In this document: positions 5,190-19,929 of the stretch, one piece after another | Layout of the letters: every line of letters begins with the position of its first letter | Position numbering within the stretch: the first letter of the stretch is position 1 | Virus record (IMG/VR): IMGVR_UViG_3300021182_000043 | Coordinates: 1 to 42,275 of that record | Strand: one strand, 5' to 3' | Length of the DNA stretch: 42,275 nt | Origin: a virus | Notes under the pieces: model-generated | Told to the model about the DNA's origin: nothing | The model's input: the letters and a program-made list of their open reading frames with translations, nothing else | Database searches by the model: none | Program-made: the position numbers and the translations under genes

Positions 5190-6109
5190 ATTCCGGTTAT
5201 CCCCAATTCCCCTTGTATATTCCCAGCAAGGGAAGGCATAAGGTCATGATGACCAGCAAGGCGCTCACCCGTATGGGTGTCCACCACTACGTCATCGTGG
5301 AGCCCCAGCAGGTAGAGGACTACGAGGAGGCGGTCCGCGTCATGGGCCTGAAGGCCACCATCCTCCCCCTACCCATGAGCTACAAGGAGAGCTACGAGCT
5401 GTGCGATGACCTCGGGCTCTTGAAGTCCACCGGCCCCGGCCCAGCCCGAAACTTCGCATGGGATCACGCCTTGGGCAACGGCTTCGCATGGCATTGGGTC
5501 ATGGACGACAACATCCGGGAGTTTAACCGCCTGAACAACAACATCCGGATCCGCGTGACCGCCCCGGCCTTCTGGAAGGTGATGGAGGACTTCTGCCTTC
5601 GCTATGAAAACATCGCCATGGCAGGGCCGAACTACACGATGTTCGCCCCGAACCGCCTCAAAGTCCCCCCATTCGTGTGCAACACCCGCATCTATTCATG
5701 CAACCTGATCCGGAATGATGTCCCCTTCCGCTGGCGGGGCCGCTACAACGAGGACACGATCCTTAGCCTGGACATGCTCAAGGCCGGATGGTGCACCGTC
5801 CAGTTCAATGTCTTTCTCCAGCTCAAGCTGCCCACCCAGACCCTCAAGGGGGGGAACACCGCCGAGTTCTACCACGCCGAGGGGACCGTCCAGCCCGGTC
5901 AGAAGTATGCAGACACGGGGACGGTAGCCAAATCCCAGATGCTCGTGAACGTCCACCCCGATGTGGCCCGCATCCTATGGAGATTCCACCGCTACCACCA
6001 CTATGTCAATTACCACCCCTTCAAGCGGAACCGGCTGAAGCTGAAGCCCGAGGTGGTGCTGGAAGGCAAGACCAACAACTTCGGCATGACCTTGGTGAAG
6101 AAGGGGTGA
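5174..6109 (+). CDS. GT-A-fold glycosyltransferase-like protein (311 aa)
   Basis: LYIPSKGR matches the first beta-strand/nucleotide-binding motif of GT-A enzymes. WHWVMDDN is a DxD-type motif. No transmembrane segment. Assigned from motifs only. Confidence 0.5.
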   Translation: MDTRVDSGYPQFPLYIPSKGRHKVMMTSKALTRMGVHHYVIVEPQQVEDYEEAVRVMGLKATILPLPMSYKESYELCDDLGLLKSTGPGPARNFAWDHALGNGFAWHWVMDDNIREFNRLNNNIRIRVTAPAFWKVMEDFCLRYENIAMAGPNYTMFAPNRLKVPPFVCNTRIYSCNLIRNDVPFRWRGRYNEDTILSLDMLKAGWCTVQFNVFLQLKLPTQTLKGGNTAEFYHAEGTVQPGQKYADTGTVAKSQMLVNVHPDVARILWRFHRYHHYVNYHPFKRNRLKLKPEVVLEGKTNNFGMTLVKKG

Positions 6110-6111
6110 GC

Positions 6112-6291
6112 ATGAAGAACCACCGCGACAGGGCGACCAGTGAGGCCAGAGCCATGAGAGCGAAAGGGGCAAGCCTCCAGGCAATTATCGCCGTGTGCCC
6201 GGTCAGGCTCGGGGACCTCATAGTAATTTGCAAGGCTGAGGGGGAGAGAGCCATCCAGCGCACCCTCAGATTGACCGCAAGGGGGATTTGA
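6112..6291 (+). CDS. small HTH-like protein (59 aa)
   Basis: ATG 6112 lies just after the upstream stop. RAKGASLQAIIAV resembles the HTH segment of the next gene (RKTGASLQQVADT). Confidence 0.45.
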   Translation: MKNHRDRATSEARAMRAKGASLQAIIAVCPVRLGDLIVICKAEGERAIQRTLRLTARGI

Positions 6292-6292
6292 C

Positions 6293-6706
6293 ATGGGAAC
6301 CACGAAAAAGGGACGGATCAAGAACCTGGAGCAGATGAACAAGGCCCTGGACCTCCGCAAGACAGGGGCATCGCTCCAGCAGGTCGCGGACACCATGGGC
6401 CTCAAGAGCCGCCAGCGGGCGCACCAGTTCATCAGTATGGCTCTCAAGGAGTTACAGGAAACCTGCATGGTCAGCGCCGAGGAAATGCGGACCATGCAGG
6501 CCGAGAGGCTGGACGCCCTGCAGCTCAAACTCTGGGGTCAGCGGGCCAGCCCGCGAGTGGCTGACACCCTCTTGCGGATCGAGCAGCGCCGGGCCGCCCT
6601 CTTTGGCCTCGATGCACCCACCAAGATCGCGGAGACCGACAGCCTAGGGAATGACCTGCCCGCGGAGGCACGGCACGCGCTTCACCAGAAGCTCCTCGGT
6701 GGCTGA
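6293..6706 (+). CDS. terS: terminase small subunit (137 aa)
   Basis: N-terminal HTH (LRKTGASLQQVADTMGL) and a helical oligomerisation-like middle region. It sits immediately upstream of, and overlaps, the large terminase gene. Confidence 0.7.
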   Translation: MGTTKKGRIKNLEQMNKALDLRKTGASLQQVADTMGLKSRQRAHQFISMALKELQETCMVSAEEMRTMQAERLDALQLKLWGQRASPRVADTLLRIEQRRAALFGLDAPTKIAETDSLGNDLPAEARHALHQKLLGG

Positions 6707-8132
6707 ATCATCCCTTGCGGACGAGTTCCGCCTGCTGCCGGTAGAGGTCAGACAAGCAAGGCTGGCAGACCTCACAGATGAGGAATCTTCCAGCCTGCTT
6801 TTCGATTGGGATTGGTGGGCCCGCCCCAGCCAGAAGCTCCCAGGGCTCATCAACCCACGGACCGCAGACGGGGATTGGATCATCTGGATGCCGCTGGCAG
6901 GCCGGGGCTGGGGGAAAACCAGGGTCGGGGCCGAGACCGTCAGATTCTGGGTCCGGCAGGGGTTCAACCGGGTCAACCTGATAGGGGCCACCGCTGACGA
7001 TGCCCGCGACATCATGATTGAGGGGGAGTCCGGCATCCTGGCCTGCTGTCCGAAGGCCGAGCGCCCAATCTATGTCCCCTCGAAGCGGCGCCTGGAGTGG
7101 CCCAACGGTTCTAAGTCCTTGATTTTCACGGCAGATGAGCCAGAGCGCCTGCGAGGCAAGCAGCACGCAAAGCTCTGGGGTGATGAGCTGGCGGCGTGGC
7201 GGTATCCAGAAGCCTGGGATCAGGCCAGCCTAGGCCTACGCCTCGGGAAGCGCCCGCAGGCCGTAATCACGACGACACCGCGCCCTACGAAGCTGGTCAA
7301 GGAGATTGTCGCCGACCCCAACACCATCCTTACCAAGGGGAGCACCTACGACAACCGCGCCAACCTCGCCCCCACCTTCATCGGGAAGATCATCACCAAA
7401 TACGAGGGCACGCGCCTGGGCCGCCAGGAGCTGAATGCCGAAATCCTGGAAGACAACCCAGGAGCCCTCTGGAACCATGCCGAGATAGATTCCACCAGGA
7501 TCAAGCTGGAAGATTGCCCCACAGACCTGCTCCGCATCGTGGTGGGCGTGGATCCCGCCGTGACCAGCAACGAGGATTCTGACCTCACCGGCATCGTGGT
7601 GGCCGGCCGAGACCACCAGAGCCCGCCCCACTTCTATGTCATGGACGATCTAAGCCTAATCGCCAAGCCTATGGGCTGGGCCACCGCCTCTGTGCATGCC
7701 TACCTGAAGCACAAGGCAGACCGAATTGTGGCGGAGACCAACAACGGCGGGGATCTAGTTGAGGCCATGGTTCGGGGCGTGACCATCGAGGGGAAGCCGG
7801 AAGGCCTGAACGTCAGCTACTCCAAGGTGACCGCCACCAGGGGGAAGCAGGTCCGCGCCGAGCCCATCAGCGCCCTCTATGAGCAGGGCCGGGTCCACCA
7901 TGTCGGCACCTTCGTGAAGCTGGAAGACGAAATGTGCGATTGGGACCCCGTGACCGCCTCAAAGTCCCCGGACCGGATGGATGCCCTGGTATGGGCCCTG
8001 ACCGAGCTGAGCTCTGACGGTGACGGGATGGGCCTGTTCCTCTGGATGCAGCAGGAGGCGGAAGCACAAAAGGCCCTGGAAGAAAAGGCGAAACGGGGTG
8101 GTAGTATGTTGCCCGGAAGGGAGCACCGATGA
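6651..8132 (+). CDS. terL: terminase large subunit (493 aa from ATG 6651; alternative GTG 6699 overlaps the terS stop)
   Basis: DWDWWARPSQKLP...WMPLAGRGWGKTRVGAE (Walker A), plus a C-terminal nuclease-like half (VGVDPA...DLTGIVVAG...DRMDALVWAL). It resembles the Terminase_6 / GTA-type family. Confidence 0.9.
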   Translation: MTCPRRHGTRFTRSSSVAESSLADEFRLLPVEVRQARLADLTDEESSSLLFDWDWWARPSQKLPGLINPRTADGDWIIWMPLAGRGWGKTRVGAETVRFWVRQGFNRVNLIGATADDARDIMIEGESGILACCPKAERPIYVPSKRRLEWPNGSKSLIFTADEPERLRGKQHAKLWGDELAAWRYPEAWDQASLGLRLGKRPQAVITTTPRPTKLVKEIVADPNTILTKGSTYDNRANLAPTFIGKIITKYEGTRLGRQELNAEILEDNPGALWNHAEIDSTRIKLEDCPTDLLRIVVGVDPAVTSNEDSDLTGIVVAGRDHQSPPHFYVMDDLSLIAKPMGWATASVHAYLKHKADRIVAETNNGGDLVEAMVRGVTIEGKPEGLNVSYSKVTATRGKQVRAEPISALYEQGRVHHVGTFVKLEDEMCDWDPVTASKSPDRMDALVWALTELSSDGDGMGLFLWMQQEAEAQKALEEKAKRGGSMLPGREHR

Positions 8133-8419
8133 CCACCTACCTCTACCCCCCCCCTGGTTCTACCGAAGTCCATTTTCTTGGTGTGGTTTACCGCCCGAAT
8201 GCAGATGGCTGCCTTGCGGTGCCGGACAGCGTGGCCGCCAACATGATCGGCCTCGCGGGCTGCACGCGCCCAAAGTCCGTCCCCATCGTGACCTCGGCGA
8301 AGCGTCCCACCATCGGCATCACCCCTGGGCTTGAGTATTTCGATTCCACGCTGGGCAAGCCGATCTGGAGGAACGCCGCCAATACTCAGTGGGTTGACGC
8401 GACCGGCACCACTGTTTAA
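8129..8419 (+). CDS. hypothetical protein (96 aa)
   Basis: ATGA coupling to terL. C-terminal LEYFDSTLGKPIWRNAANTQWVDATG. Function unknown. Confidence 0.6.
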   Translation: MTTYLYPPPGSTEVHFLGVVYRPNADGCLAVPDSVAANMIGLAGCTRPKSVPIVTSAKRPTIGITPGLEYFDSTLGKPIWRNAANTQWVDATGTTV

Positions 8420-8429
8420 GGAGCAGGCC

Positions 8430-10751
8430 ATGGCGAAACCGAAGCCTGAGGGCGAAGAGTTGCTTGGCAGGACGCCCAACACGCCGGATGGAGGCGTGGA
8501 CTTCAAGCCTGGGATCATCGAGCGCGTGGCTGCAGGAATCCGCTACATCAGGACTGGTGAAGCCGCGCCGTGGTTCGGCCCCAACGATCCCCTACCGCCT
8601 TCCGCGCCTGACAGCGTGAAGGGCCGCCCGTGGGACTTCCCGATGGGGGTCAACCTCCAATACACCCCCCGCGTGGACCAGGGCGATACCACGGTGGACT
8701 TCGCCACGCTGCGGCGGGTGTCTGACCCCGTGCAGGGCGGGCTGGACCAGCTCCGCCTCGCCATCGAGACCCGCAAGGATCAGATGGAAGGCCAGCGGTG
8801 GTGCTTCAAGGGCATGGACGGGAAAGATGGTGGGCCCCGCGCCCGTGTCATTGAGGCTGCGTTCCGCAGGCCTGATGTGGTGCACACCTACCGCCAATGG
8901 GCCCGCCCTATCTGGGATGACCTGCTCGTGATCGACGCCCCCGCCATCTACCTCCGCCCCATCGGTGGGAAAGATGGCCAGAAGTTCATCCCCGAGCAGG
9001 TGGATGGGGCCTCCATCAAAATCCTGATCGACCAGAATGGCCGCACTCCCCTCCCACCTGATGCAGCATTCCAGCAGGTCATCAAGGGCCTGCCCGCCGT
9101 GAACTACACGCTGGATGAGCTTCAGTATTCCCCCAGGAATCTCCGCAGCTACAGGTTCTACGGCATGAGCCCGGTGGAGCAGGTGTTGGGCATCGCCAAC
9201 ATCGCCCTGAAGCGGCAGCTCCACCTGCTGGCCTATTACACCTCTGGGACCGTGCCGGACGCCATCGTGACCCCACCGGTGGGGTGGAATCCAGACCAGA
9301 TCAAGCAGGCCCAGCAGTGGATGGACCAGCTCACAGCTCCAGGTGCCCGCCACAAGGTGCGCATCATCCCCGGCGGAGAGTTCACCCAGCTCCGCGACCC
9401 CAAACTCAAGGATGAAATGGATGACTGGCTGGCCAGGATCATCTGCTATGCCTTCAGCCTTCCCCCTGGTGCGCTGGTCAAGGACATGACCAAAGCCGCA
9501 GCCGGGACCAACGTCCAGACCTCACATGAGGAGGGCCTGGAGCCCTTCAAGCTGTGGTGGAAGGATGTGATGGATGATCTGGTCTTGCGGTGCTTTGGGG
9601 TGGATGATATCGAGTTCGCCTACGAAGAAGAGGAAATCACCGATGCTAATGTGAAAATGACCATCTGGACCGGCTATAAGAATGCTGGCGTGGTCACGGT
9701 GGATGAAGTGCGGGACCGGGCTCTCGGCCTGGAGCCCATGACGGATGAGCAGAAGGCCAGCGTTGCGCCTCCTGTGCCTTTGGTGGCCCCTGGGGGGGAG
9801 CCCGGCAGCGCCGGACCGAAGCCAGGAACCACCCAGGGGGAGGTGGATGGGTCGGCCTCCCCACTTCCCCCTGTCCCTAAAGCAGCTGCGCGGCAGGCTC
9901 ACGCAGGTGGGCTTCAAAAAAAAAAGACCAAGATACTCGCCCGCATTGACCACGACCGGCCAGCGGTAAAGAAGGCCGAGAAGGCGATCACCAAGCTATT
10001 CAGGGCCCGCTTCGCCAAGCAGCGTGCGGCCCTGGTAGCTGCCGTTAAGGCTGAGGCCCAGAAGCTCCTAAAGATGGACCAGGGAGAGCTGCTGGACCTC
10101 TGGGATTCGCTCTCGGAAGAGGGGAAGGACAAGCTCCGCAAGTCCGTGACCACGCAGCTCAAGGGGACCGCCAAGGATGGGGCCAGCCAGGGGCTCACTC
10201 AGGTCATGGACTTCGCTGGGCCGACCGAGGGCGATCTGGACGCCATGCTCTCCCAGGCCAACGAGAGGGCCGTGGCCTATGCCGAGGACAGAGGGGCCGA
10301 GCTGGTGGGCATGAAGTGGGACCACGACAGCGGGGCCTACATCGAGAACCCCAATCCAGAGTGGGCCATCGACAACACCACCAGGGACAAGATCCGCGAT
10401 CTGGTGGCCATGGCGGAGGACAAGGGCTGGTCCAATGCAGAGCTGGCTGATGCCATCCAGGCAGATACCGCCTTCAGCGACGAGAGGGCGGAAATGATCG
10501 CCCGCACAGAGACCGCCTTCGCGGACATACAGGGCAATCTGGCTGGTTGGGAGGCCTCTGGGGTAGTCGAGTCCAAAGAGTGGTCTGTCAGCCAGGACGA
10601 GGTGTGCGACGAGTGCCTAGCCTTGGATGGGAAGGTCATCGGGCTGGATGAGGACTTCCCGGATGGCGACCCCCCGCTGCACCCGAACTGCCGGTGTGAT
10701 CTTCTCCCTGGCGTCATTTCCCAAGAACAAATTGACGCTGAAACCGCCTAA
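8430..10751 (+). CDS. portal protein fused to a MuF / SPP1 gp7-like minor head protein domain (773 aa)
   Basis: AAGGAG lies upstream of ATG 8430. The N-terminal ~495 aa sit in the canonical portal position after terL. A Pro/Gly linker follows. The C terminus carries MuF-type motifs: ERAEMIARTETAFA...SVSQDEVCDECLALDGKV...PPLHPNCRCDLLP. Confidence 0.85.
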   Translation: MAKPKPEGEELLGRTPNTPDGGVDFKPGIIERVAAGIRYIRTGEAAPWFGPNDPLPPSAPDSVKGRPWDFPMGVNLQYTPRVDQGDTTVDFATLRRVSDPVQGGLDQLRLAIETRKDQMEGQRWCFKGMDGKDGGPRARVIEAAFRRPDVVHTYRQWARPIWDDLLVIDAPAIYLRPIGGKDGQKFIPEQVDGASIKILIDQNGRTPLPPDAAFQQVIKGLPAVNYTLDELQYSPRNLRSYRFYGMSPVEQVLGIANIALKRQLHLLAYYTSGTVPDAIVTPPVGWNPDQIKQAQQWMDQLTAPGARHKVRIIPGGEFTQLRDPKLKDEMDDWLARIICYAFSLPPGALVKDMTKAAAGTNVQTSHEEGLEPFKLWWKDVMDDLVLRCFGVDDIEFAYEEEEITDANVKMTIWTGYKNAGVVTVDEVRDRALGLEPMTDEQKASVAPPVPLVAPGGEPGSAGPKPGTTQGEVDGSASPLPPVPKAAARQAHAGGLQKKKTKILARIDHDRPAVKKAEKAITKLFRARFAKQRAALVAAVKAEAQKLLKMDQGELLDLWDSLSEEGKDKLRKSVTTQLKGTAKDGASQGLTQVMDFAGPTEGDLDAMLSQANERAVAYAEDRGAELVGMKWDHDSGAYIENPNPEWAIDNTTRDKIRDLVAMAEDKGWSNAELADAIQADTAFSDERAEMIARTETAFADIQGNLAGWEASGVVESKEWSVSQDEVCDECLALDGKVIGLDEDFPDGDPPLHPNCRCDLLPGVISQEQIDAETA
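9916..9925 (+). repeat. A10 homopolymer in the portal/MuF linker
   Basis: gcttcAAAAAAAAAAgacc reads as CAA AAA AAA AAG in frame. The -1 frame stops at 9947-9949 and the +1 frame at 9967-9969. Confidence 0.95.
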
Positions 10752-10771
10752 CACCACTCCATGGAGGGTCT

Positions 10772-10981
10772 ATGTTCATTGGCGACGATGGAACCTGCGC
10801 CTATCACGGCTGCGATCAGCGCGGCCACTCGGTCTGCCATGAAGTTTACCAGCAACAGGCGGCCATCGCCGCGACCATCAACACCATGCTGGCTGACGTA
10901 GGGAACACCATCCTGCCGACCTATTCCACCCAGCTCAAGGCTCTGCTGGCCGAAAACTTCCCAACTTCAACCACAACCTGA
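10772..10981 (+). CDS. hypothetical protein (69 aa)
   Basis: GGAGGG Shine-Dalgarno upstream. Cys/His-rich N terminus (CAYHGCDQRGHSVCH). Confidence 0.5.
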   Translation: MFIGDDGTCAYHGCDQRGHSVCHEVYQQQAAIAATINTMLADVGNTILPTYSTQLKALLAENFPTSTTT

Positions 10982-11028
10982 CCGTTCTGGACATGGCGGG
11001 GCAGATGAGCACAGACTACAAAGTAAAA

Positions 11029-11064
11029 AGCACCGGAGCCCCTTGTGGCCGGTGCTATCATTTT
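11029..11064 (+). terminator. intra-operon stem-loop with a T tract (attenuating terminator candidate)
   Basis: AGCACCGG-12 nt-CCGGTGCT followed by ATCATTTTG, in the gap before the protease gene. Confidence 0.45.
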
Positions 11065-11087
11065 GCCGTAGTCCAGGGGGGTTAACG

Positions 11088-12377
11088 ATGGCGAAGCGAG
11101 TTCGGCTGTTCGGGGCGATCCAAAAGGTGGATGTCCAGGATGACGGGAGCCTGATCGTATCTGGTGTTGCCTCCAGTGAAACCGTGGATGGTGAGGGCGA
11201 GGTCGTGAAGGCCGATGCCATGCGGGGGGCCATCCCTGCCTATATGAAGAAGTCCGGCGCTGTCCGTGAAATGCACCAGCCTATCGCCGCTGGGGCCGCC
11301 ATCGCCATCCGTGTGGATGATGACGGTGTGACCCACTTCGAATGTCTGGTGAAGGACACCGGGAGCATCGGCAAGATCACCTGCGATCCCCCCGTCCTCA
11401 AGGGCTTCAGCATCGGCGGAAAGGTCACGGAGCGCGACCCCCTGAACAAGAAGATCATCACCGGCCTGAGCCTCGTGGAAATCAGTCTGGTGGATGTCCC
11501 CTGCAACCCTGATGCCGTGTTCGCCATGGCAAAGTTCGACACCCCGGAGGATGAAGTGGACGAGCCCGAAAGCACTGAGACCACCCAGAAGGGAATGGCC
11601 CATGTGGCAGACCTCGCATGGCTCCTGAAACAGATCCAGTGGTTGACCGCCGATCAGATCCAGGAGGCGGCCCGCGAAGGTGATTCCAGCCCCGTGCCCT
11701 CCAAGATCAAGGCTTGGCTGGCTGCTGGTGGCGTGCTCCTGGCGGAAATGACTGCCGAGGAGGTGGCCGAGCTGGTCACCGCCCTGCCGGATGCAGCGCC
11801 CGAGGCTGTTGGTGCTGATGTGGTGAACTACGCAGCTGGCACCGATGGCGTGGAAAAGAAGGGTGCGAAGTTCAGCCAGTCCAGCAAAGACGCCCTGGAC
11901 ACCGCCCACAAGGGTGCGATGGATGCCCACAAGCAGATGGGTTCCTGCCTGAAGGCCCTGGGTGCTGTGTGGGCCGAGGGTGGAGAGAACGGGAACACCC
12001 AAGCCAGCGGCGGGAACAATGACGCGCAGGGTGCCGGTGCCGGTTCTGACGACACCAGCGGGAAGGCCCAGCTCTCAGAGGCGATCACCAAGGCCGCGAG
12101 TCTGACCGACGAGCTGGCAAAGGTCACGACCGAAAAAGAGTCGCTGCAGAAAGCGCTGGACAGCATCAGCGCCGACTTCAAGACCACAAAGGATGCCCTG
12201 GCGAAAGCTGAGGCTGATCTGAAGGTGAAGGGGGCGAAGCAGGCTGTCCCCATCGAGAAGGGAAAGGAATCCACCGCCCTGGGCGCTGCCGACGAGCCCA
12301 AACCAAGCACGGACCCTCTGGACATCATGAAATCTGTCCAGGGCCAGCCCGTGAATCTCATTTTCAACCCCCGTTAG
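11088..12377 (+). CDS. prohead protease (XkdF / S78-like) fused to a scaffold-like coiled-coil C terminus (429 aa)
   Basis: The N terminus MAKRVRLFGAIQKVDVQDDGSLIVSGVASSETVDGEGEVV...REMH...GFSIGG is typical of XkdF-like prohead proteases. The C-terminal half is Ala/Lys/Glu-rich and helical. It sits between the portal and the capsid genes. Confidence 0.75.
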   Translation: MAKRVRLFGAIQKVDVQDDGSLIVSGVASSETVDGEGEVVKADAMRGAIPAYMKKSGAVREMHQPIAAGAAIAIRVDDDGVTHFECLVKDTGSIGKITCDPPVLKGFSIGGKVTERDPLNKKIITGLSLVEISLVDVPCNPDAVFAMAKFDTPEDEVDEPESTETTQKGMAHVADLAWLLKQIQWLTADQIQEAAREGDSSPVPSKIKAWLAAGGVLLAEMTAEEVAELVTALPDAAPEAVGADVVNYAAGTDGVEKKGAKFSQSSKDALDTAHKGAMDAHKQMGSCLKALGAVWAEGGENGNTQASGGNNDAQGAGAGSDDTSGKAQLSEAITKAASLTDELAKVTTEKESLQKALDSISADFKTTKDALAKAEADLKVKGAKQAVPIEKGKESTALGAADEPKPSTDPLDIMKSVQGQPVNLIFNPR

Positions 12378-12405
12378 TCCGGGGCAACCCAAGGAGGCTC
12401 TACAG

Positions 12406-13887
12406 ATGAGCGACCTCACCAAAACCATGGACGCCATGCGGGAGGCCCAGGCCAACGGCTCGGAAGCACTCGCCAAAGCGTTCACCCAGGGCACCGGTCT
12501 CGTTGCCTACGACCTCCAGGCCCCGGCCCTGGCCCTCTATCCCTTCCTCGCTGCGCTCACCATGCTGCGCAACGAAATTCCCCGTGTCGGCGGCGGCGGG
12601 GATACGGCGACCCGCTGGAAGGCCATCACTGGCATCAACACCACGAACGTCCACCCGGGCGTGTCGGAAGGTAATCGCGGTGCGCTCATCAGCACCACCG
12701 TGGCCAACTACCTCGCTGCATATGCCGGGTTCGGCCTGGAAGACACCGTGAGCTTCGAGGCGGATTACGCTGCCCAGGGGTTCGATGATGTCAAGGCCCG
12801 CAGCCGCCTCGGCCTGCTCCGGTCCCTGATGCTGGCGGAAGAGGCCCAGCTCCTGGGTGGCAACGCCAGCCTGTCCTTGGGCACCACGCCCACCCCGACC
12901 CTGGCCGCCGCTGCCGGTTCCTGGACCCTGCCCACGCTTACCTACGGCGTGATCTGCGTGGCCCTCTCCGCCCAGGGCTTCAGCCGCACCAGCCTCGCCA
13001 ACGGCGTCCCTGGCCAGCTCTCGAAGTCCAACGTGGACGGTTCCACCGACACCATCAACGGTGGAGCTGCCCAGAAGTCCGCTGAAGCCACCCAGGCCAT
13101 CACCCTTGGTCAGGCGCTCCAGTGCACCGTCACCCCGGTAGAAGGCGCGGTAGGTTACGCGTGGTTCATCGGTGCCGCTGGTGCTGAAAAGCTGGAGTTC
13201 ATCACCACCATCAACAGCCTGCAGGTCACGGCTCCCCTGAATGGCACCAGGCAGGCAGCTTCCGCCCTGACTGCCGCTGACTACTCGAAGGACACCGTTT
13301 ACAACGTAGACGGTCTGCTCACCTTCGCCAAGTCGGCCAACAACAGCATCGTCAGCGCCCTCGCTACCGGTGTCGTTGGCACCGGCACCACGCTGACCTC
13401 GGACGGTGCGGGCGGTGTGGCGGAAATCAACAACCTGCTGCAGACCATGTTTGATACCTACCGGCTCGGGCCTGATGAGCTGCTGGTCTCCAGCGGTGGC
13501 ATTCGCCTCATCAACAAGCTCTGCATCGGCAACGGTGGCGCCCCCTTATTCCGCTTCGTCATGGATGACAAGGGTGGAGTGTCCGGCCTCGCGGCTGGCG
13601 CGACCATCGGCAGCTACCTGAACCCCATCACCAACCAGCTCATCCGTGTCCGGGTCCACCCGAACATGCCCGCTGGCACGATCCTCGGCTATGCCAAGGA
13701 AATTCCCTACCCCCTCAACGGTGTCGGGAACGTGATGCAGGTCAAGACCCGCCGGGAATACTACAGCATCGACTGGCCGGTAGGCATCCAGGGGCGGAAA
13801 TTCCCCTTCGGTGTTTACTGCGATGAGGTGCTGCAGCACTACGCCCCCTTCGCCATGATGAAGCTCTACAACGTCGCCGGGGCCTAG
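12406..13887 (+). CDS. major capsid protein (493 aa)
   Basis: AGGAGG Shine-Dalgarno upstream. It directly follows the protease-scaffold gene. High GC3 and a long ORF. Large for a capsid protein, so an inserted domain is possible. Confidence 0.8.
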   Translation: MSDLTKTMDAMREAQANGSEALAKAFTQGTGLVAYDLQAPALALYPFLAALTMLRNEIPRVGGGGDTATRWKAITGINTTNVHPGVSEGNRGALISTTVANYLAAYAGFGLEDTVSFEADYAAQGFDDVKARSRLGLLRSLMLAEEAQLLGGNASLSLGTTPTPTLAAAAGSWTLPTLTYGVICVALSAQGFSRTSLANGVPGQLSKSNVDGSTDTINGGAAQKSAEATQAITLGQALQCTVTPVEGAVGYAWFIGAAGAEKLEFITTINSLQVTAPLNGTRQAASALTAADYSKDTVYNVDGLLTFAKSANNSIVSALATGVVGTGTTLTSDGAGGVAEINNLLQTMFDTYRLGPDELLVSSGGIRLINKLCIGNGGAPLFRFVMDDKGGVSGLAAGATIGSYLNPITNQLIRVRVHPNMPAGTILGYAKEIPYPLNGVGNVMQVKTRREYYSIDWPVGIQGRKFPFGVYCDEVLQHYAPFAMMKLYNVAGA

Positions 13888-13908
13888 GCTCTGGTGTGGT
13901 TCAACCAA

Positions 13909-13934
13909 GGGGCGGGTGGGAAGCTGCCCGCCCC
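13909..13934 (+). terminator. GC-rich stem-loop right after the capsid gene (partial terminator or mRNA stabiliser candidate)
   Basis: GGGGCGGG-10 nt-CCCGCCCC, starting 22 nt after the capsid stop. No clear U tract. Confidence 0.4.
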
Positions 13935-13953
13935 TACTTCTGAAAGGCCGACC

Positions 13954-14457
13954 ATGAAGATCAAGCTCTACCGCAAGGACACGTCCGGGTGCAGCGTCGA
14001 AGGGGTGAACTACGAGCCCGATGGTGATGGTGCTTTCCTGGTATCTCCTGAGCATGTCCCCCAGCTCGTGGAAATGGGCTTCACCAGTGAGAACCCTCTC
14101 CCGCCCGAGAACCCCCGCAAGTCCAACCCTGCCCTAATGACCACCGAGGCCCTGCAGGATGAGGCCGCTGAGCTCGAGATTCCCAACTTCGGGACGCTGG
14201 AGCGTGGCCCGCTCGTGGGCGCTGTTGCCAAGGCCCGCAAAGCCAAGATCGCCGCCGAGGTCGCCGCTGCTGATGCTGCTGAGGCTGACCGCCTCAAAGC
14301 AGTTGACGCCGAGTCGGGGCTGGTCCAGGACGCGCCGAAAGCCCCTGGGGCCTCTGAGCTTCCCAACCTCCAGTCAGACCAGCCTGAGGGCGGTTCTACG
14401 CCTGTCCTCGCCTCGGCCGGCCAGGACGGAGCTGACGCTCTTAAGACCGAGGTGTAG
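13954..14457 (+). CDS. hypothetical head-module protein (167 aa) with a possible HeH/Rho_N-like helix pair
   Basis: Track ORF trimmed to ATG 13954. The segment TTEALQDEAAELEIPNFGTLERGPLVGAVAKARKA resembles HeH/Rho N-terminal motifs. Ala-rich C terminus. Confidence 0.55.
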   Translation: MKIKLYRKDTSGCSVEGVNYEPDGDGAFLVSPEHVPQLVEMGFTSENPLPPENPRKSNPALMTTEALQDEAAELEIPNFGTLERGPLVGAVAKARKAKIAAEVAAADAAEADRLKAVDAESGLVQDAPKAPGASELPNLQSDQPEGGSTPVLASAGQDGADALKTEV

Positions 14458-17628: not shown

Positions 17629-19929
17629 ATGGCAGACAACCCAGAGCCCATTGAAGTAAGCATTATCGCCAAGATCCAGGGCCTGCTCGATGGACTCGGG
17701 CAGGCCACTTCTGGCGTCAAGCACAGCACCGAGGAAATGCAGGGTGCTTTCAAGGGGCTGGGCGCGACCATCGAGAACCTCAAGACCCCCTTCATCGCCA
17801 TCACGGCGCTGCTGGCCGGTGGTGCGCTTTTCAAGGAGGCCATCAATGGGACGGTGGAGTGGGCCCTGGAGGCGAACAAGCTCTCGAAGGTGCTGAACAC
17901 CAGCGTGCAGGATGCTTCCACTTGGGCCGTGGCCCTGCATACGCTCGGGATTCCTGCCGACTCTCTGGCGGGGATCATCGCCCGCCTACAGACCCGTGTG
18001 ACCGCAAGCTCCGATGCCTTCAAAAAGTGGGGGGTAGAGACCAAGAACGCCGAGGGCGGGGCGCTGCCGATGGCCGAGGTCATCCAGGGCATGGCTACCA
18101 AATACCAGGGGCTGAACACTGACCAGGAAAAAAATGCGATGCTGCAGGAGCTGGCTGGACGAGGCTGGATCAACATGCTGCCGGTCATGCGCCTCACCAC
18201 CGAGCGCATGGAAGAGGCCCGGAAAGAAGCCGCTGAGCTTCATCTAGTTGTGGGCCCTGAAGGTGTCGCCAAGACCAGGGAATACCAAGAATCCATGCGG
18301 AAGCTGGGGCTGATCGCTCAGTCTCTCCAGATCCAGATTGGCGATGCCCTGCTGCCCTCTCTCACGCAGCTAGGGAAGTGGTTTGGCGAGGTTGGGCCTG
18401 GGCTGGCGATGGTCCTGAGCAACGCCATCAAGGGGATCGTGACAGCCTTCTTCACCCTGAAGTTCATCATCGAAATGACCGTTGCATGGATCACCGACTT
18501 TTTCGAGAAGGCGGTAAACGGATTCAAGACCGTGGGCGCGGTCATCGCAGCTGCTGTCAAGGGTGATTGGGAAGGCGTGAAGAGGGCCGCGATAGCTGGG
18601 GCCGAGGAGCATGAGCGCATCCAGCAGGAATCTGTAGCCATCACCAAAGACCTCTGGGAGACCCTCGGCGAAGACCTGGACAAGATTTGGAGCAACCAGG
18701 GCCCAGGCGCTGGGAAGCCGGTGGCCGATGCCCCGCCTCCTCCCGCCGCTGACAAGTCCCGCGTGGCCGAATGGCAGGCCGAGCTGGACAAGCAGAAGGC
18801 GATGCTGGCCCAGAATGAGGGCGACCTATCCCAGATGGCTGAGGCTGCAGAGCGTGACTTCTGGGCGAAGAAGCTGGCCCAGGCGAAAAAGGGGTCTGAT
18901 GAGTGGGTGGTGGTGCGCCTGAAGATGGCCGCGCTAGGTATTTCCATCGACAAAACCGAGAAGGATGAAATCGAGAAGATCCGCCAGGAGCTGGCTGATG
19001 ATGAGAAAAAGCGCGTGACAGAAGGCCTTGCGATGGCCAAGATTCGGGCCACCCAGAAGATCAACAATGCACGCGCTGAGCTTGCTTCCGAGAAGGAAAC
19101 CGCCGACAACCTCCTGGCTATGGGCCAGATCACCGCCGCTAAGCGGCTGGCGATGGATGTGGACTTCCGAAAGAAGGAGCTGGCGCTGGAAATTCAGGCG
19201 CTGACCGAGGAGCAGGGCCAAGAGGGGATGACCCTGGTGAAGTGGCAGGAACTTCAGGCCAAGAAGGTGGCCGCCAGCCAGAAGGCCGCCAACGACATCC
19301 AGAAGACCAACGATGCGATGCTCCAGGAGCAGCGGAACCGTTTCAATCAGTGGTTCGAAATGCTCACCAGCGGCTTCCAGAATGCTATCAGCGGGCTCGT
19401 GAAGGGGACGATGACATGGGGTCAGGCCCTCAAGAGCGTGCTGTCCAGCGCGCTGGATGGGGTGATCAACTTTTTCGTCCAGTGGGGCCTGAAAGAAGCG
19501 GAGACTTATCTGGCGGGCCTACTGCTCAAGAAAACCACCAACACGGCGGAGGTGCTCGGGTCCGCAAGCCTCTACGCCGTGAACGCCATGGCATCGGTCG
19601 CGGCCATCCCTGTGGTGGGCTGGTCCATGGCCCCTGGTGTAGGTGCTGCAGCTTTCGCAGAGGGGATGTCCTTTATGCCCAGTGCCGCTGGTGGATGGGA
19701 CAGCGTGCCCCGCGATACCTACGCCAAGATCCATGAGAAGGAAATGGTCCTGAGCGCCCCTATCTCGGAAGGCCTGCGGAACATCATCAGCACAGGCGGG
19801 GCCGGGGCGGTAGGGGATGTGCACGCCCACTTCCATGGGGTTGTGGATGCCAAGACTTTCTTCCAGAAGAATCAGGCAAGCATCGTGCGGACTCTCAGCG
19901 ATGCCGTTAAAAAGCGGAGGCACGGGTGA
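17629..19929 (+). CDS. tail tape measure protein (766 aa)
   Basis: Long helical Ala/Lys/Glu-rich protein with hydrophobic Gly/Ala segments near the C terminus. Canonical position. Confidence 0.9.
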   Translation: MADNPEPIEVSIIAKIQGLLDGLGQATSGVKHSTEEMQGAFKGLGATIENLKTPFIAITALLAGGALFKEAINGTVEWALEANKLSKVLNTSVQDASTWAVALHTLGIPADSLAGIIARLQTRVTASSDAFKKWGVETKNAEGGALPMAEVIQGMATKYQGLNTDQEKNAMLQELAGRGWINMLPVMRLTTERMEEARKEAAELHLVVGPEGVAKTREYQESMRKLGLIAQSLQIQIGDALLPSLTQLGKWFGEVGPGLAMVLSNAIKGIVTAFFTLKFIIEMTVAWITDFFEKAVNGFKTVGAVIAAAVKGDWEGVKRAAIAGAEEHERIQQESVAITKDLWETLGEDLDKIWSNQGPGAGKPVADAPPPPAADKSRVAEWQAELDKQKAMLAQNEGDLSQMAEAAERDFWAKKLAQAKKGSDEWVVVRLKMAALGISIDKTEKDEIEKIRQELADDEKKRVTEGLAMAKIRATQKINNARAELASEKETADNLLAMGQITAAKRLAMDVDFRKKELALEIQALTEEQGQEGMTLVKWQELQAKKVAASQKAANDIQKTNDAMLQEQRNRFNQWFEMLTSGFQNAISGLVKGTMTWGQALKSVLSSALDGVINFFVQWGLKEAETYLAGLLLKKTTNTAEVLGSASLYAVNAMASVAAIPVVGWSMAPGVGAAAFAEGMSFMPSAAGGWDSVPRDTYAKIHEKEMVLSAPISEGLRNIISTGGAGAVGDVHAHFHGVVDAKTFFQKNQASIVRTLSDAVKKRRHG

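What the first reader, a model, noticed from the sequence alone, without database searches (positions are those of the whole stretch)
9900..9969. A10 tract exactly at the portal/MuF domain junction, with both alternative frames closing within about 15 codons
**What the sequence shows.** The 773-aa ORF fuses a portal-sized N-terminal part (about 495 aa) to a MuF / SPP1 gp7-like minor head domain.
- In the Pro/Gly/Ala linker between them lies a run of ten A (9916-9925), read as CAA AAA AAA AAG.
- With A at roughly one fifth of bases, such a run is expected far less than once in 42 kb. This is a rough composition argument, not a computed statistic.
- The -1 frame stops at 9947-9949 (...KKKDQDTRPH*).
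- The +1 frame stops at 9967-9969 (...KKRPRYSPALTTTGQR*).

**Established background.** Runs of nine or more A/T cause transcriptional slippage that is used for gene expression, for example in Thermus thermophilus dnaX, Shigella mxiE and IS elements.

**Inference.** Slippage or ribosomal frameshifting here would yield a portal-only protein of about 505-515 aa alongside the full portal-MuF fusion. That would set a fixed ratio of the two products from one gene. It is an unusual way to dose a minor head protein onto the dodecameric portal.
Basis: partly seen in the sequence, partly recalled or inferred. Interest (0 to 1): 0.7.

Follow-up and report, generated by a model that had tools for sequence, protein, structure and literature searches.

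The report
Conserved slippery site splitting portal and MuF
The run of ten A's between the portal and MuF halves of this phage gene is a conserved slippery site that very probably lets one gene make both a plain portal protein and a portal-MuF fusion, and the same junction carries such a signal in dozens of related phage lineages.

Summary
A10 lies at 9916-9925, read CAA AAA AAA AAG in a 773-aa portal-MuF ORF. It is the only A/T run of 8 or more in the window (about 0.01 expected).

- 28 of 94 relative clusters (34-84% aa identity) keep an A9/A10 run at this spot, against codon usage and with randomised flanks.
- In 8 lineages the same run separates a portal-only ORF from a MuF frame at -1. 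In 7 of these MuF has no start codon before its conserved motif.
- 42 of 74 fused clusters carry an in-phase -1 heptamer (A_AAA_AAR, G_GGA_AAR) where about 3 are expected. In 26 of 42 the -1 product ends in Tyr (background 0.8%).
- Heptamer-only lineages have a strong downstream hairpin. A9/A10 lineages, including the window, do not (p = 6e-8). This repeats the E. coli versus Thermus dnaX alternation.

Best reading: a programmed recoding site, here mainly RNA-polymerase slippage, giving short portal plus portal-MuF.

There is no transcript or protein evidence. "Both frames close soon" is not distinctive. I found no published description.

The parts
8430..10751 (+). Portal-MuF fusion ORF (773 aa from the ATG; a TTG at 8331 is also open). 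This is the long isoform in the genome-encoded frame.
   Evidence: The identical 773-aa protein is on record from two sources, JGI and Logan.
8430..9761 (+). Portal part. The Pfam PF04860 hit covers aa 234-430 (nt 9129-9719). Stand-alone portal homologues of 470-510 aa align over the whole stretch.
9762..9914 (+). Pro/Gly/Ala-rich linker (about aa 445-495). It ends in the basic patch that precedes the run.
9916..9925 (+). A10 tract, the proposed slippage site. It is read cAA AAA AAA AAg.
   Evidence: Conserved as A9/A10 in 28 of 94 relative clusters. No run of 11 or more was seen.
9917..9926 (+). Two overlapping in-phase -1 slippery heptamers: A_AAA_AAA (9917-9923) and A_AAA_AAG (9920-9926, the E. 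coli dnaX heptamer).
9926..9949 (+). Tail of the short isoform after a -1 shift or one extra A: ...KKK-DQDTRPH, stop TGA 9947-9949. The stop lies inside the ATT GAC codons of the conserved I-D.
   Evidence: Relatives end here or later, mostly in Tyr, and some in His as in the window.
9925..9969 (+). Tail of the short isoform after loss of one A: ...KK-RPRYSPALTTTGQR, stop TAA 9967-9969. It contains P-R-Y (AGA TAC uses the rare frame-0 codon ATA).
   Evidence: In this frame PRY/RY is kept in L001, L002, L003, L242 and L081, where it is encoded by AGA, AGG, CGA or CGC + TAY.
9942..9968 (+). Conserved N-terminal motif of the MuF part (R-I-D-H-D-R-P-A-V; family consensus x-L-x-P-I-D/N-R-D/E-R-P-A-V).
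9927..9974 (+). Region where a -1 frameshift-stimulating hairpin would be expected. None is present: MFE -7.8 kcal/mol for 9930-9974, 88th percentile of windows in the same ORF.
10386..10703 (+). MuF / SPP1 gp7 domain (PF04233, aa 653-758).

Best explanation
**What it is.** The A10 tract is a programmed recoding site at the boundary between the portal and MuF halves of the gene.
- The genome-encoded frame gives the 773-aa portal-MuF fusion.
- A fraction of expression events shift frame on the run and terminate 7-16 codons later.
- That gives a portal-only protein of about 506-515 aa, so the phage makes two portal isoforms from one gene.

**Mechanism in this window.** The shift is most likely made mainly by RNA polymerase. 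The polymerase slips on the run and produces A9, A11 and similar transcripts. -1 ribosomal frameshifting on the in-phase A_AAA_AAG is a possible second contributor.

**Family context.** The same junction carries a recoding signal in many relatives.
- Most use a 7-nt -1 heptamer plus a downstream hairpin.
- A subset, including this window, has extended the heptamer to A9/A10 and has no hairpin.
- In some run-bearing relatives the default frame is the short portal, and the shift makes the fusion.

**Shown:** conservation, frame topologies, heptamer enrichment, the hairpin dichotomy and the Tyr-ended short products.

**Inferred:** that shifting actually happens, its efficiency, which polymerase or ribosome step dominates, and that its purpose is to limit how many of the 12 portal subunits carry a MuF domain.
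For: **1. The run is rare and is conserved at nucleotide level.**
- 0.008-0.013 such runs are expected in the window.
- A9/A10 sits at the homologous spot in 52 of 174 relative loci, which is 28 of 94 clusters at 70% portal identity. Identity to the window goes down to about 34%, and GC is mostly 55-67%.
- Run lengths: 7 (13 loci), 8 (1), 9 (20), 10 (32), 11 or more (0).
- Across the 28 clusters the nine A columns are 100% conserved. Flanking columns show only 30-50% for the commonest base.

**2. The run goes against codon usage.**
- Outside the run, these genes use AAA for 201 of 806 Lys codons and CAA for 157 of 742 Gln codons.
- For the window, the chance of CAA AAA AAA given Q-K-K is about 0.005.

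**3. In some relatives the shift is required.** 8 clusters have the run between a portal-only ORF and a MuF frame: L081/L082, L115, L121, L158, L208, L215, L221, L224.
- In all 8 the MuF frame is at -1. Among split loci without a run, 4 are at -1 and 8 at +1 (Fisher p = 0.004).
- In 7 of 8 there is no ATG/GTG/TTG in the MuF frame before its conserved PIDR motif.
- The MuF frame stays open for 253-421 codons.
- L081 is 66% identical to the window protein.

**4. Family-wide signal.**
- 42 of 74 fused clusters have a strict in-phase X_XXY_YYZ heptamer in the junction.
- About 3.1 occurrences are expected from the rest of the same ORFs.

**5. The short product is constrained.**
- The -1 product ends in Tyr in 26 of 42 clusters and in His in 5 more. 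The position-weighted background is 0.8% (binomial p about 2e-44, not corrected for phylogeny).
- The short ORF ends ...RY in 5 of the 8 split-with-run lineages.
- Stand-alone portals end ...RYP.

**6. Hairpin dichotomy.**
- Heptamer-only clusters: median structure percentile 0.03, 17 of 23 below 0.1, mean MFE -18.4 kcal/mol.
- A9/A10 clusters: median 0.60, 1 of 28 below 0.1, mean MFE -9.3 kcal/mol (Mann-Whitney p = 6e-8).
- The window is at 0.88.
- The two states are interleaved on the portal tree.

**7. Both shift directions appear to be used in run lineages.**
- The frame one base downstream of MuF ('M+1') cannot be reached by a -1 shift from a fused gene.
- Its product ends in Tyr in 9 of 28 run clusters and 0 of 24 no-run loci (p = 0.002).

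**8. Precedent.** Thermus dnaX uses an A9 run and RNA-polymerase slippage. E. coli dnaX uses A_AAA_AAG plus a hairpin. Selection against A/T runs in coding regions becomes evident at about nine nucleotides in a large proportion of bacterial genomes (PMC1088944).
Against: - There is no transcript, read-level or protein evidence for this window or for any relative.
- In the window both shifted products lack the terminal Tyr. The -1 product ends ...RPH. The other has P-R-Y followed by 10 more residues, which may be a relic of a split ancestor.
- 32 of 74 fused clusters have no strict slippery heptamer at the junction. Cultured Brevundimonas phages are among them. A second isoform is therefore not obligatory for a portal-MuF fusion, or it is made another way.
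- The family has a protein-level Lys/Arg-rich patch at this spot, which makes A-rich codons easier to evolve.
- The statistics treat clusters below 70% identity as independent. They are not corrected for phylogeny.
- The hairpins of the heptamer class share no common register, so no covariation support could be obtained.
- A10 also contains the most shift-prone bacterial -1 heptamer, and iterated AAA codons cause ribosome sliding (PMC4363877). The polymerase-versus-ribosome split is therefore not settled.
Confidence: 0.6

Rival explanations
1. The site is used, but by the ribosome. -1 programmed frameshifting occurs on the in-phase A_AAA_AAG / A_AAA_AAA, possibly with ribosome sliding on the iterated AAA codons. 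The long run replaces the hairpin as the efficiency booster. The short product is ...KKKDQDTRPH.
For: - In-phase heptamers are the family-wide signal, including G_GGA_AAR, which cannot be a polymerase slippage site.
- All 8 split-with-run lineages need exactly a -1 shift to make the fusion.
- The window's -1 frame stops at the same TGA (in ATT GAC) as many relatives.
- Iterated AAA codons promote ribosome sliding in E. coli (PMC4363877).
Against: - The hairpin is lost specifically in run lineages.
- Run length is held at 9-10, near the nine-nucleotide length at which selection against A/T runs becomes evident in many bacterial genomes, rather than 7.
- Tyr-ended products in the frame one base downstream of MuF occur only in run lineages. 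A -1 shift from a fused gene cannot reach that frame.
- Insertion of one A by the polymerase explains the direction seen in the split lineages equally well.
Confidence: 0.25
2. There is no recoding. The run is a side effect of a conserved Lys-rich patch (K-K-K) in the linker, kept by descent, and only the 773-aa fusion matters. Any release of a portal-only form would be by the prohead protease.
For: - A K/R-rich patch is present in fusions without a run.
- Many fusions have no slippery site.
- The window's shifted products lack the terminal Tyr.
Against: - AAA and CAA/GAA are minority codons in these genes.
- Flanking sequence is randomised while the run is invariant.
- Eight out-of-frame lineages have an intact MuF frame, and 7 of them have no start codon before the conserved motif.
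- Heptamer enrichment is more than 13-fold and the shifted products end in Tyr.
- The hairpin/run dichotomy would have no reason to exist.
Confidence: 0.07
3. The run is a DNA-level contingency locus. Replication slippage switches the phage population between fused and split genotypes, and selection acts on that heterogeneity rather than on RNA or protein-level shifting.
For: - Both fused and split states occur among fairly close relatives (window vs L081).
- Within cluster L006, A10 and A9 variants coexist.
- Homopolymers of this length are hypermutable (PMC1088944).
Against: - In cluster L006 the A9 variants carry a compensating change a few bases downstream (AAGACCCTG vs AGGGCACTA), so they stay in frame. 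The frame is therefore under selection within a lineage.
- Run length is confined to 9-10, with none at 11 or more.
- Split lineages would lack MuF altogether without RNA or protein-level shifting.
- This reading does not explain the heptamer + hairpin relatives.
Confidence: 0.05
4. A sequencing or assembly error in a homopolymer has falsely fused (or, in relatives, falsely split) two genes.
For: Homopolymers are error-prone. The window is a metagenome contig.
Against: - The same fused protein is on record from two sources.
- In-frame A9/A10 fusions recur in tens of independent assemblies, including isolate genomes (Trinickia mobilis L172, Limnobacter litoralis L170).
- The split ORFs end in the conserved ...RY.
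- No A11 fused version was seen that could be the 'true' form of the A10 split loci.
Confidence: 0.02

Closest known systems
dnaX of Thermus thermophilus (A9, RNA-polymerase slippage) and of E. coli (A_AAA_AAG + stem-loop, -1 ribosomal frameshift)
   Same: - One gene yields a full-length product and a C-terminally truncated one at a domain boundary.
- Homologous genes use either a 7-nt heptamer with a downstream hairpin or a run of 9 or more A's without one (PMC1088944).
- The portal-MuF family shows the same alternation.
- The window has the same A_AAA_AAG heptamer as E. coli dnaX.
   Different: - The gene is different: a phage portal and minor head protein, not a replicase subunit.
- Here both arrangements exist, shift-makes-short and shift-makes-long.
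- The short product has its own conserved C-terminal Tyr.
- Nothing has been shown experimentally.
Tail assembly chaperone G/GT frameshift of lambda-like phages (G_GGA_AAG); T7 gene 10A/10B
   Same: - Conserved -1 frameshift in a phage structural-gene cluster that sets the ratio of a short and a long protein.
- G_GGA_AAG/A is used at the portal-MuF junction in several relatives (L042, L036, L180, L024, L025).
- The split-with-run relatives have the same logic: abundant short form, rarer fusion.
   Different: - Different genes and a different position in the head module.
- In the window the long form is the default product.
Portal-MuF fusion genes of actinobacteriophages (Microbacterium clusters EA/EB; Arthrobacter phage Sonali)
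   Same: Portal and MuF-like minor capsid functions are fused in one gene. They are described as unusual fusions (PMC7302621; annotation).
   Different: - No recoding is described for them.
- They are only distantly related to the window (28% identity or less over the portal part).
- I did not examine their junctions.
SPP1 gp6 (portal) / gp7 (MuF family) pair
   Same: MuF-family protein that associates with the portal and is present in few copies per head (my recollection of the SPP1 literature, not checked here). This gives a rationale for limiting the number of MuF domains per portal.
   Different: Separate genes in SPP1, with no slippery junction known to me.
Paramyxovirus P/V mRNA editing; Shigella mxiE; IS-element A-runs
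   Same: - Polymerase stuttering on a homopolymer gives access to alternative frames.
- The default frame differs between related viruses, as between the window and L081-type relatives.
- mxiE and IS elements use slippage to fuse two ORFs (PMC1088944).
   Different: Different polymerases or gene classes. The resemblance is in mechanism only.

Membership tests
Programmed transcriptional slippage site (Thermus dnaX / mxiE / IS-element type) | Homopolymeric A or T run of about 9 or more in the sense strand inside a coding region | tested here: met
   A10 at 9916-9925
Programmed transcriptional slippage site (Thermus dnaX / mxiE / IS-element type) | Run conserved among homologues at nucleotide level, beyond what the protein sequence requires | tested here: met
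   - 28 of 94 clusters carry A9/A10.
- Flanks are randomised.
- AAA and CAA are minority codons in these genes.
Programmed transcriptional slippage site (Thermus dnaX / mxiE / IS-element type) | ORF organisation that uses the shift: a downstream ORF in another frame without its own start, or defined truncated products | tested here: met
   - Met in 8 relative lineages.
- In the window itself the downstream part is in frame, and the shift would truncate the protein.
Programmed transcriptional slippage site (Thermus dnaX / mxiE / IS-element type) | Transcripts heterogeneous in run length | not testable with these tools
   No RNA or read-level data are available.
-1 programmed ribosomal frameshift site (E. 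coli dnaX / lambda G-GT type) | In-phase X_XXY_YYZ slippery heptamer | tested here: met
   A_AAA_AAA at 9917-9923 and A_AAA_AAG at 9920-9926, both in the ORF frame
-1 programmed ribosomal frameshift site (E. coli dnaX / lambda G-GT type) | Stimulatory stem-loop or pseudoknot a few nucleotides downstream | tested here: not met
   - Window: MFE -7.8 kcal/mol, 88th percentile of its own ORF.
- By contrast, 17 of 23 heptamer-only relatives have a strong hairpin.
- Pseudoknots were not searched for.
-1 programmed ribosomal frameshift site (E. coli dnaX / lambda G-GT type) | Upstream Shine-Dalgarno-like stimulator about 10 nt before the heptamer | tested here: inconclusive
   AGGTGG at 9905-9910 ends 9 nt before A_AAA_AAG. 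The upstream flank is not conserved among run-bearing relatives.
-1 programmed ribosomal frameshift site (E. coli dnaX / lambda G-GT type) | Conserved product of the -1 frame | tested here: inconclusive
   The window's -1 product ends ...RPH. 26 of 42 relatives end in Tyr and 5 in His/HP.
HK97-type phage portal protein (Pfam PF04860) | Profile match above the curated cut-off | tested here: met
   47.2 bits against a cut-off of 39.1, aa 234-430. Homologous to stand-alone portals of 470-510 aa.
MuF / SPP1 gp7 head morphogenesis protein (Pfam PF04233) | Profile match above the curated cut-off | tested here: met
   64 bits against a cut-off of 29.6, aa 653-758
Phase-variable (contingency) homopolymer | Run-length polymorphism among near-identical genomes that switches the reading frame | tested here: inconclusive
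   - Cluster L006 has A9 and A10 variants, but both are in frame through a nearby compensating change.
- Frame differs only between more distant lineages.
- No population data are available.

The most novel reading that the evidence does not exclude
The portal/MuF boundary is an old, family-wide recoding locus in a large group of HK97-type phages and prophages of Proteobacteria and other phyla.
- Virions are built from two portal isoforms: a plain portal with a conserved C-terminal Tyr, and a portal-MuF fusion.
- Lineages have repeatedly switched between hairpin-stimulated -1 ribosomal frameshifting and hairpin-less poly-A polymerase slippage.
- They have also switched between three gene layouts: fused; split with MuF at -1; split with MuF at +1.
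- It would be a second natural system, after dnaX, where the two recoding mechanisms substitute for each other. It would also be the first recoding event described for a portal gene.
Probability: 0.7. Interest if true: 0.8.

Novelty: new member of a known kind. Interest (0 to 1): 0.75.

Why it matters
**If confirmed**
- Portal rings in this large phage group are mixed oligomers. Only some of the 12 subunits carry the internal MuF domain.
- The mix is set by a slippery sequence rather than by separate genes or proteolysis.
- This gives a concrete, testable answer to how a low-copy internal head protein is delivered to the portal vertex.

**Consequences for annotation**
- 'Portal' plus 'truncated MuF' gene pairs with an A-run between them are really one recoded gene.
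- Many single 'portal-MuF' genes encode two products.

**For the recoding field**
- It adds a widespread new case with built-in natural controls. Heptamer + hairpin and A9/A10 without hairpin occur at one homologous site, and both frame topologies exist.
- It adds an unexplained conserved C-terminal Tyr on the short isoform.

**Experimental handles**
- Prophages in cultured hosts: Trinickia mobilis DHG64, Limnobacter litoralis NBRC 105857.
- Neisseria prophages of the G_GGA_AAG + hairpin type.

Tried and rejected
- **Close cultured relatives.** Megablast of 6000-14000 against 50,697 phage records found nothing. The best cultured relatives are Brevundimonas phages Strzyga and Polewnik (36% aa identity). 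They are fused and have no slippery site at the junction, so they are no help for this site.
- **'Both frames close within about 15 codons' as evidence.** Rejected. In the frame one base downstream of MuF, stops are equally close in relatives without a run (p = 0.13). Only the -1 frame differs weakly (p = 0.018, uncorrected).
- **Consensus structure or covariation for the hairpins.** RNAalifold on 15 aligned heptamer-class sequences gave no common structure. The hairpins are lineage-specific in register, so I make no covariation claim. I rely only on per-sequence MFE percentiles.
- **Conserved upstream SD-like element in run lineages.** Not found.
- **A7 at 18128-18134 as a second recoding site in the window.** It reads GAA AAA AAT inside the 766-aa ORF 17629-19929 and shows no sign of use.
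- **C9 at 8146-8154.** About one such run is expected at 31.5% C (my arithmetic), so it is not remarkable.
- **Literature.** Six full-text searches and reading of five papers found no description of frameshifting or slippage between portal and MuF. 'Portal' does not occur in the held part of the 2016 recoding review, nor in the GeneTack survey. One further search failed on syntax.
Full report
**1.

Positions 9916-9925 are ten A's, read CTT CAA AAA AAA AAG ACC (L Q K K K T) in the ORF 8430-10751.

The ORF product is 773 aa. It carries a portal domain (PF04860, aa 234-430, 47.2 bits against a cut-off of 39.1) and a MuF/SPP1 gp7 domain (PF04233, aa 653-758, 64 bits against 29.6). The run encodes aa 496-499 at the end of a Pro/Gly/Ala linker.

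It is the only A or T run of 8 or more in the 42,275-bp window. The expected number of A10+ runs is 0.008-0.013.

- One more A, or a -1 shift, gives ...QKKKDQDTRPH with a stop at 9947-9949.
- One fewer A gives ...QKKRPRYSPALTTTGQR with a stop at 9967-9969.

**2. Relatives**

No cultured phage is close. The best are Brevundimonas phages at 36% aa identity, annotated with a single 'putative portal protein'.

A search of predicted proteins found 515 relatives at E <= 1e-10. Most are portal-MuF fusions of 700-800 aa. There are also portal-only proteins of 470-510 aa that end where the window's linker ends.

A K-K-K at aa 475-510 recurs in most relatives down to about 43% identity.

I fetched DNA for 240 loci from viral contigs and bacterial genomes and MAGs, plus a few named contigs. 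By tblastn, 174 loci have a portal part followed by a MuF part. They fall into 94 clusters at 70% portal identity.

**3. The run is conserved as nucleotides**

An A9 or A10 run sits at the homologous place in 52 loci, or 28 clusters. Identity to the window runs from 84% down to about 34%, mostly in contigs of 55-67% GC.

Run lengths at the junction are 7 (13 loci), 8 (1), 9 (20) and 10 (32). None is longer.

Across the 28 clusters the nine A columns are invariant. Every flanking column shows only 30-50% for its commonest base.

The codon phase of the run differs between lineages (cAA AAA AAA AAg; ggt AAA AAA AAA; ctA AAA AAA AAt).

Outside the run these genes prefer AAG (605) over AAA (201) and CAG (585) over CAA (157). 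For the window, CAA AAA AAA has a probability of about 0.005 given Q-K-K.

There is also a protein-level Lys/Arg-rich patch at this position in fusions without a run (...EK[VL]AK[AS]KK-x-L-x-P-I-D/N-R-D/E-R...). So the Lys residues are partly explained by the protein. The A-only spelling and the fixed length are not.

**4. Relatives in which the shift is required**

In eight clusters the same A9/A10 run lies between a portal-only ORF and a MuF reading frame displaced by -1. These are L081/L082, L115, L121, L158, L208, L215, L221 and L224.

- L081 is 66% identical to the window protein. Its zero frame reads GAA AAA AAA AAG CCC AGC CTG CGC TAC TGA (...EKKKPSLRY stop).
- With one extra A or a -1 shift it reads ...EKKKAQPALLKPKPLNRDRQA... 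into a full MuF domain.
- In 7 of the 8 clusters the MuF frame has no ATG, GTG or TTG between its upstream stop and the conserved P-I-D-R motif. It then stays open for 253-421 codons.
- All eight are displaced by -1. Split loci without a run are 8 at +1 and 4 at -1 (Fisher p = 0.004).

An intact, conserved, start-less MuF frame behind a slippery run is the classic signature of recoding.

The window has the opposite layout: fusion by default, truncation on shifting. It has the same run at the same place.

**5. The junction is a family-wide recoding site**

Among the 74 fused clusters, 42 have a strict in-phase X_XXY_YYZ heptamer in the junction:

| Heptamer | Clusters |
|---|---|
| A_AAA_AAA | 22 |
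| A_AAA_AAG | 11 |
| G_GGA_AAA | 4 |
| G_GGA_AAG | 3 |
| C_CCA_AAA | 1 |
| T_TTA_AAG | 1 |

The rest of the same ORFs contain 18 such heptamers in 45,956 codons, which predicts about 3.1 in the junction regions. G_GGA_AAG is the lambda G/GT site and cannot be a polymerase slippage site. The general mechanism in the family is therefore -1 ribosomal frameshifting.

The product of the -1 frame, 1-53 codons long, ends in Tyr in 26 of 42 clusters and in His or His-Pro in 5 more, the window among them. The position-weighted background in the same ORFs is 0.8% (binomial p about 2e-44, not corrected for phylogeny).

The short ORF of the split-with-run lineages ends ...RY in 5 of 8. Stand-alone portals end ...RYP or ...RY. 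The 35-codon -1 tails of the L006-L011 and L243 lineages end ...RRYP or ...QRYP, like the zero-frame portal tails of L035, L065 and L087.

The short isoform therefore has a conserved C-terminus, whichever frame encodes it. Its function is unknown.

**6. What distinguishes the A9/A10 lineages**

I folded the 45 nt starting 4 nt after the last in-phase heptamer. I ranked each MFE against all 45-nt windows of the same ORF.

| Class | n | Median percentile | Below 0.1 | Mean MFE (kcal/mol) |
|---|---|---|---|---|
| Heptamer only | 23 | 0.03 | 17 | -18.4 |
| A9/A10 run | 28 | 0.60 | 1 | -9.3 |

The difference is significant (Mann-Whitney p = 6e-8). The window scores -7.8 kcal/mol, at percentile 0.88. 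The two states are interleaved on a neighbour-joining tree of the portal parts, so switches happened several times.

This is the pattern known from dnaX. E. coli uses A_AAA_AAG plus a stem-loop and the ribosome shifts. Thermus thermophilus uses A9 and the RNA polymerase slips. Nine A/T is also the length at which selection against such runs in coding regions becomes evident in a large proportion of bacterial genomes (PMC1088944).

A second pointer concerns the frame one base downstream of the MuF frame. A -1 shift from a fused gene cannot reach it.
- Its product ends in Tyr in 9 of 28 run clusters and in 0 of 24 no-run loci (p = 0.002).
- In the window's own clade that frame keeps P-R-Y, with the Arg spelled AGA, AGG, CGA or CGC. 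The MuF-frame residues at the same bases vary (K-I, T-I, K-V, A-L).
- In the window, however, Tyr is followed by ten more residues. This may be a relic of a split ancestor.

**7. Verdict on mechanism**

I rate it about 0.85 likely that the run is a functional recoding site giving a short portal and a portal-MuF fusion.

Given that, I rate polymerase slippage as the main route in the window at roughly 0.6-0.7 and ribosomal -1 shifting or sliding at 0.3. The two can coexist, because A10 contains A_AAA_AAG and iterated AAA codons make ribosomes slide (PMC4363877).

The purpose, limiting the number of MuF domains per portal dodecamer, is inference. Relatives with opposite default frames would give different ratios unless slippage on A9/A10 is very efficient.

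**8. Weak points**

- There are no transcript, read or protein data.
- 32 of 74 fused clusters, including the cultured Brevundimonas phages, show no strict slippery heptamer.
- The window's shifted products lack the terminal Tyr.
- The statistics are not phylogeny-corrected.
- The hairpins share no common register, so no covariation test was possible.
- 'Both frames close soon' is not evidence. Stops in the frame one base downstream of MuF are as close in relatives without runs (p = 0.13).

**9. Comparison with what is known**

Portal-MuF fusions are known as unusual fusions in Microbacterium and Arthrobacter phages (PMC7302621). Recoding in phage structural genes is known for the tail assembly chaperone and for some capsid genes.

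I found no description of recoding between portal and MuF in six full-text searches. The word 'portal' does not occur in the held part of the 2016 recoding review or in the GeneTack survey.

I therefore file the finding as a new member of a known kind: programmed frameshifting or slippage in a gene pair where it has not been reported.

Noticed in passing
L035 4370-4476; L065 2155-2261; L083 3880-3937; L087 2776-2891: A third layout without an A-run.
- The portal ORF ends ...RYP (L083 ends differently) and overlaps the MuF frame, displaced +1, by 107-170 nt.
- All four loci share CGGAGGTNNCTTC: GGAGG, 3 nt, then CTT_C. This is the geometry of the prfB +1 frameshift site.
- The conserved MuF motif starts right after it.
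- It could equally be a Shine-Dalgarno sequence for an overlapping MuF start. L065 has a GTG 10 nt downstream. L035 has no start there.
   Followed up: partly
L192, L166, L120, L030, L039, L211, L162, L025, L042 junctions (45 nt after the heptamer): Very stable hairpins (-19 to -28 kcal/mol) start about 4-8 nt after A_AAA_AAR / G_GGA_AAR heptamers. They are built from the codons of the conserved P-I-D-R motif and a complementary stretch about 20 nt further on. The register differs between lineages.
   Followed up: partly
short portal isoforms and stand-alone portals (P0086, P0087, P0093, P0100, P0101, P0108, P0114; many loci): The C-terminus is almost always Tyr or Tyr-Pro, often preceded by Arg, whichever reading frame encodes it. 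I know of no function for this.
   Followed up: partly
L006-L011 cluster, e.g. L006 4481-4500 vs L008 4478-4498: A10 and A9 variants occur within one cluster (portal identity at least 70%). The A9 variants carry a compensating change just downstream (AAAAAAAAAAGACCCTG vs AAAAAAAAAGGGCACTA), so both stay in frame (QKKKTLA vs QKKRALA).
   Followed up: no
P0003 / L003 2206-2552, L004 4455-4801: The closest viral-contig relative (84% identity) has an insertion of about 110 aa in the linker just upstream of the A10 run (881-aa protein). The run itself is unchanged.
   Followed up: no
P0011, P0022, P0033 (fusions) and P0098, P0107, P0120 (portal-only), C-termini: A shared C-terminal peptide of the form ...F-x-R-D-x-x-G-R-I-x-G-A... 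ends both some portal-only proteins and some longer fusions. This suggests a movable C-terminal module.
   Followed up: no
P0046, P0048 (PF18812), P0053 (PF14890), P0006, P0013 (about 1000-1076 aa): Some portal-MuF proteins carry extra C-terminal domains beyond MuF. An example is the prophage protein of Azospira oryzae PS.
   Followed up: no
window 8146-8154: C9 run (CCC CCC CCC, Pro-Pro-Pro) near the start of the 96-aa ORF 8129-8419, between terminase and portal. About one such run is expected at this C content (my arithmetic), so it is probably not meaningful.
   Followed up: partly
window 18128-18134: A7 inside the 766-aa ORF 17629-19929, read GAA AAA AAT. It is the second-longest A run in the window and shows no sign of a recoding role.
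   Followed up: partly
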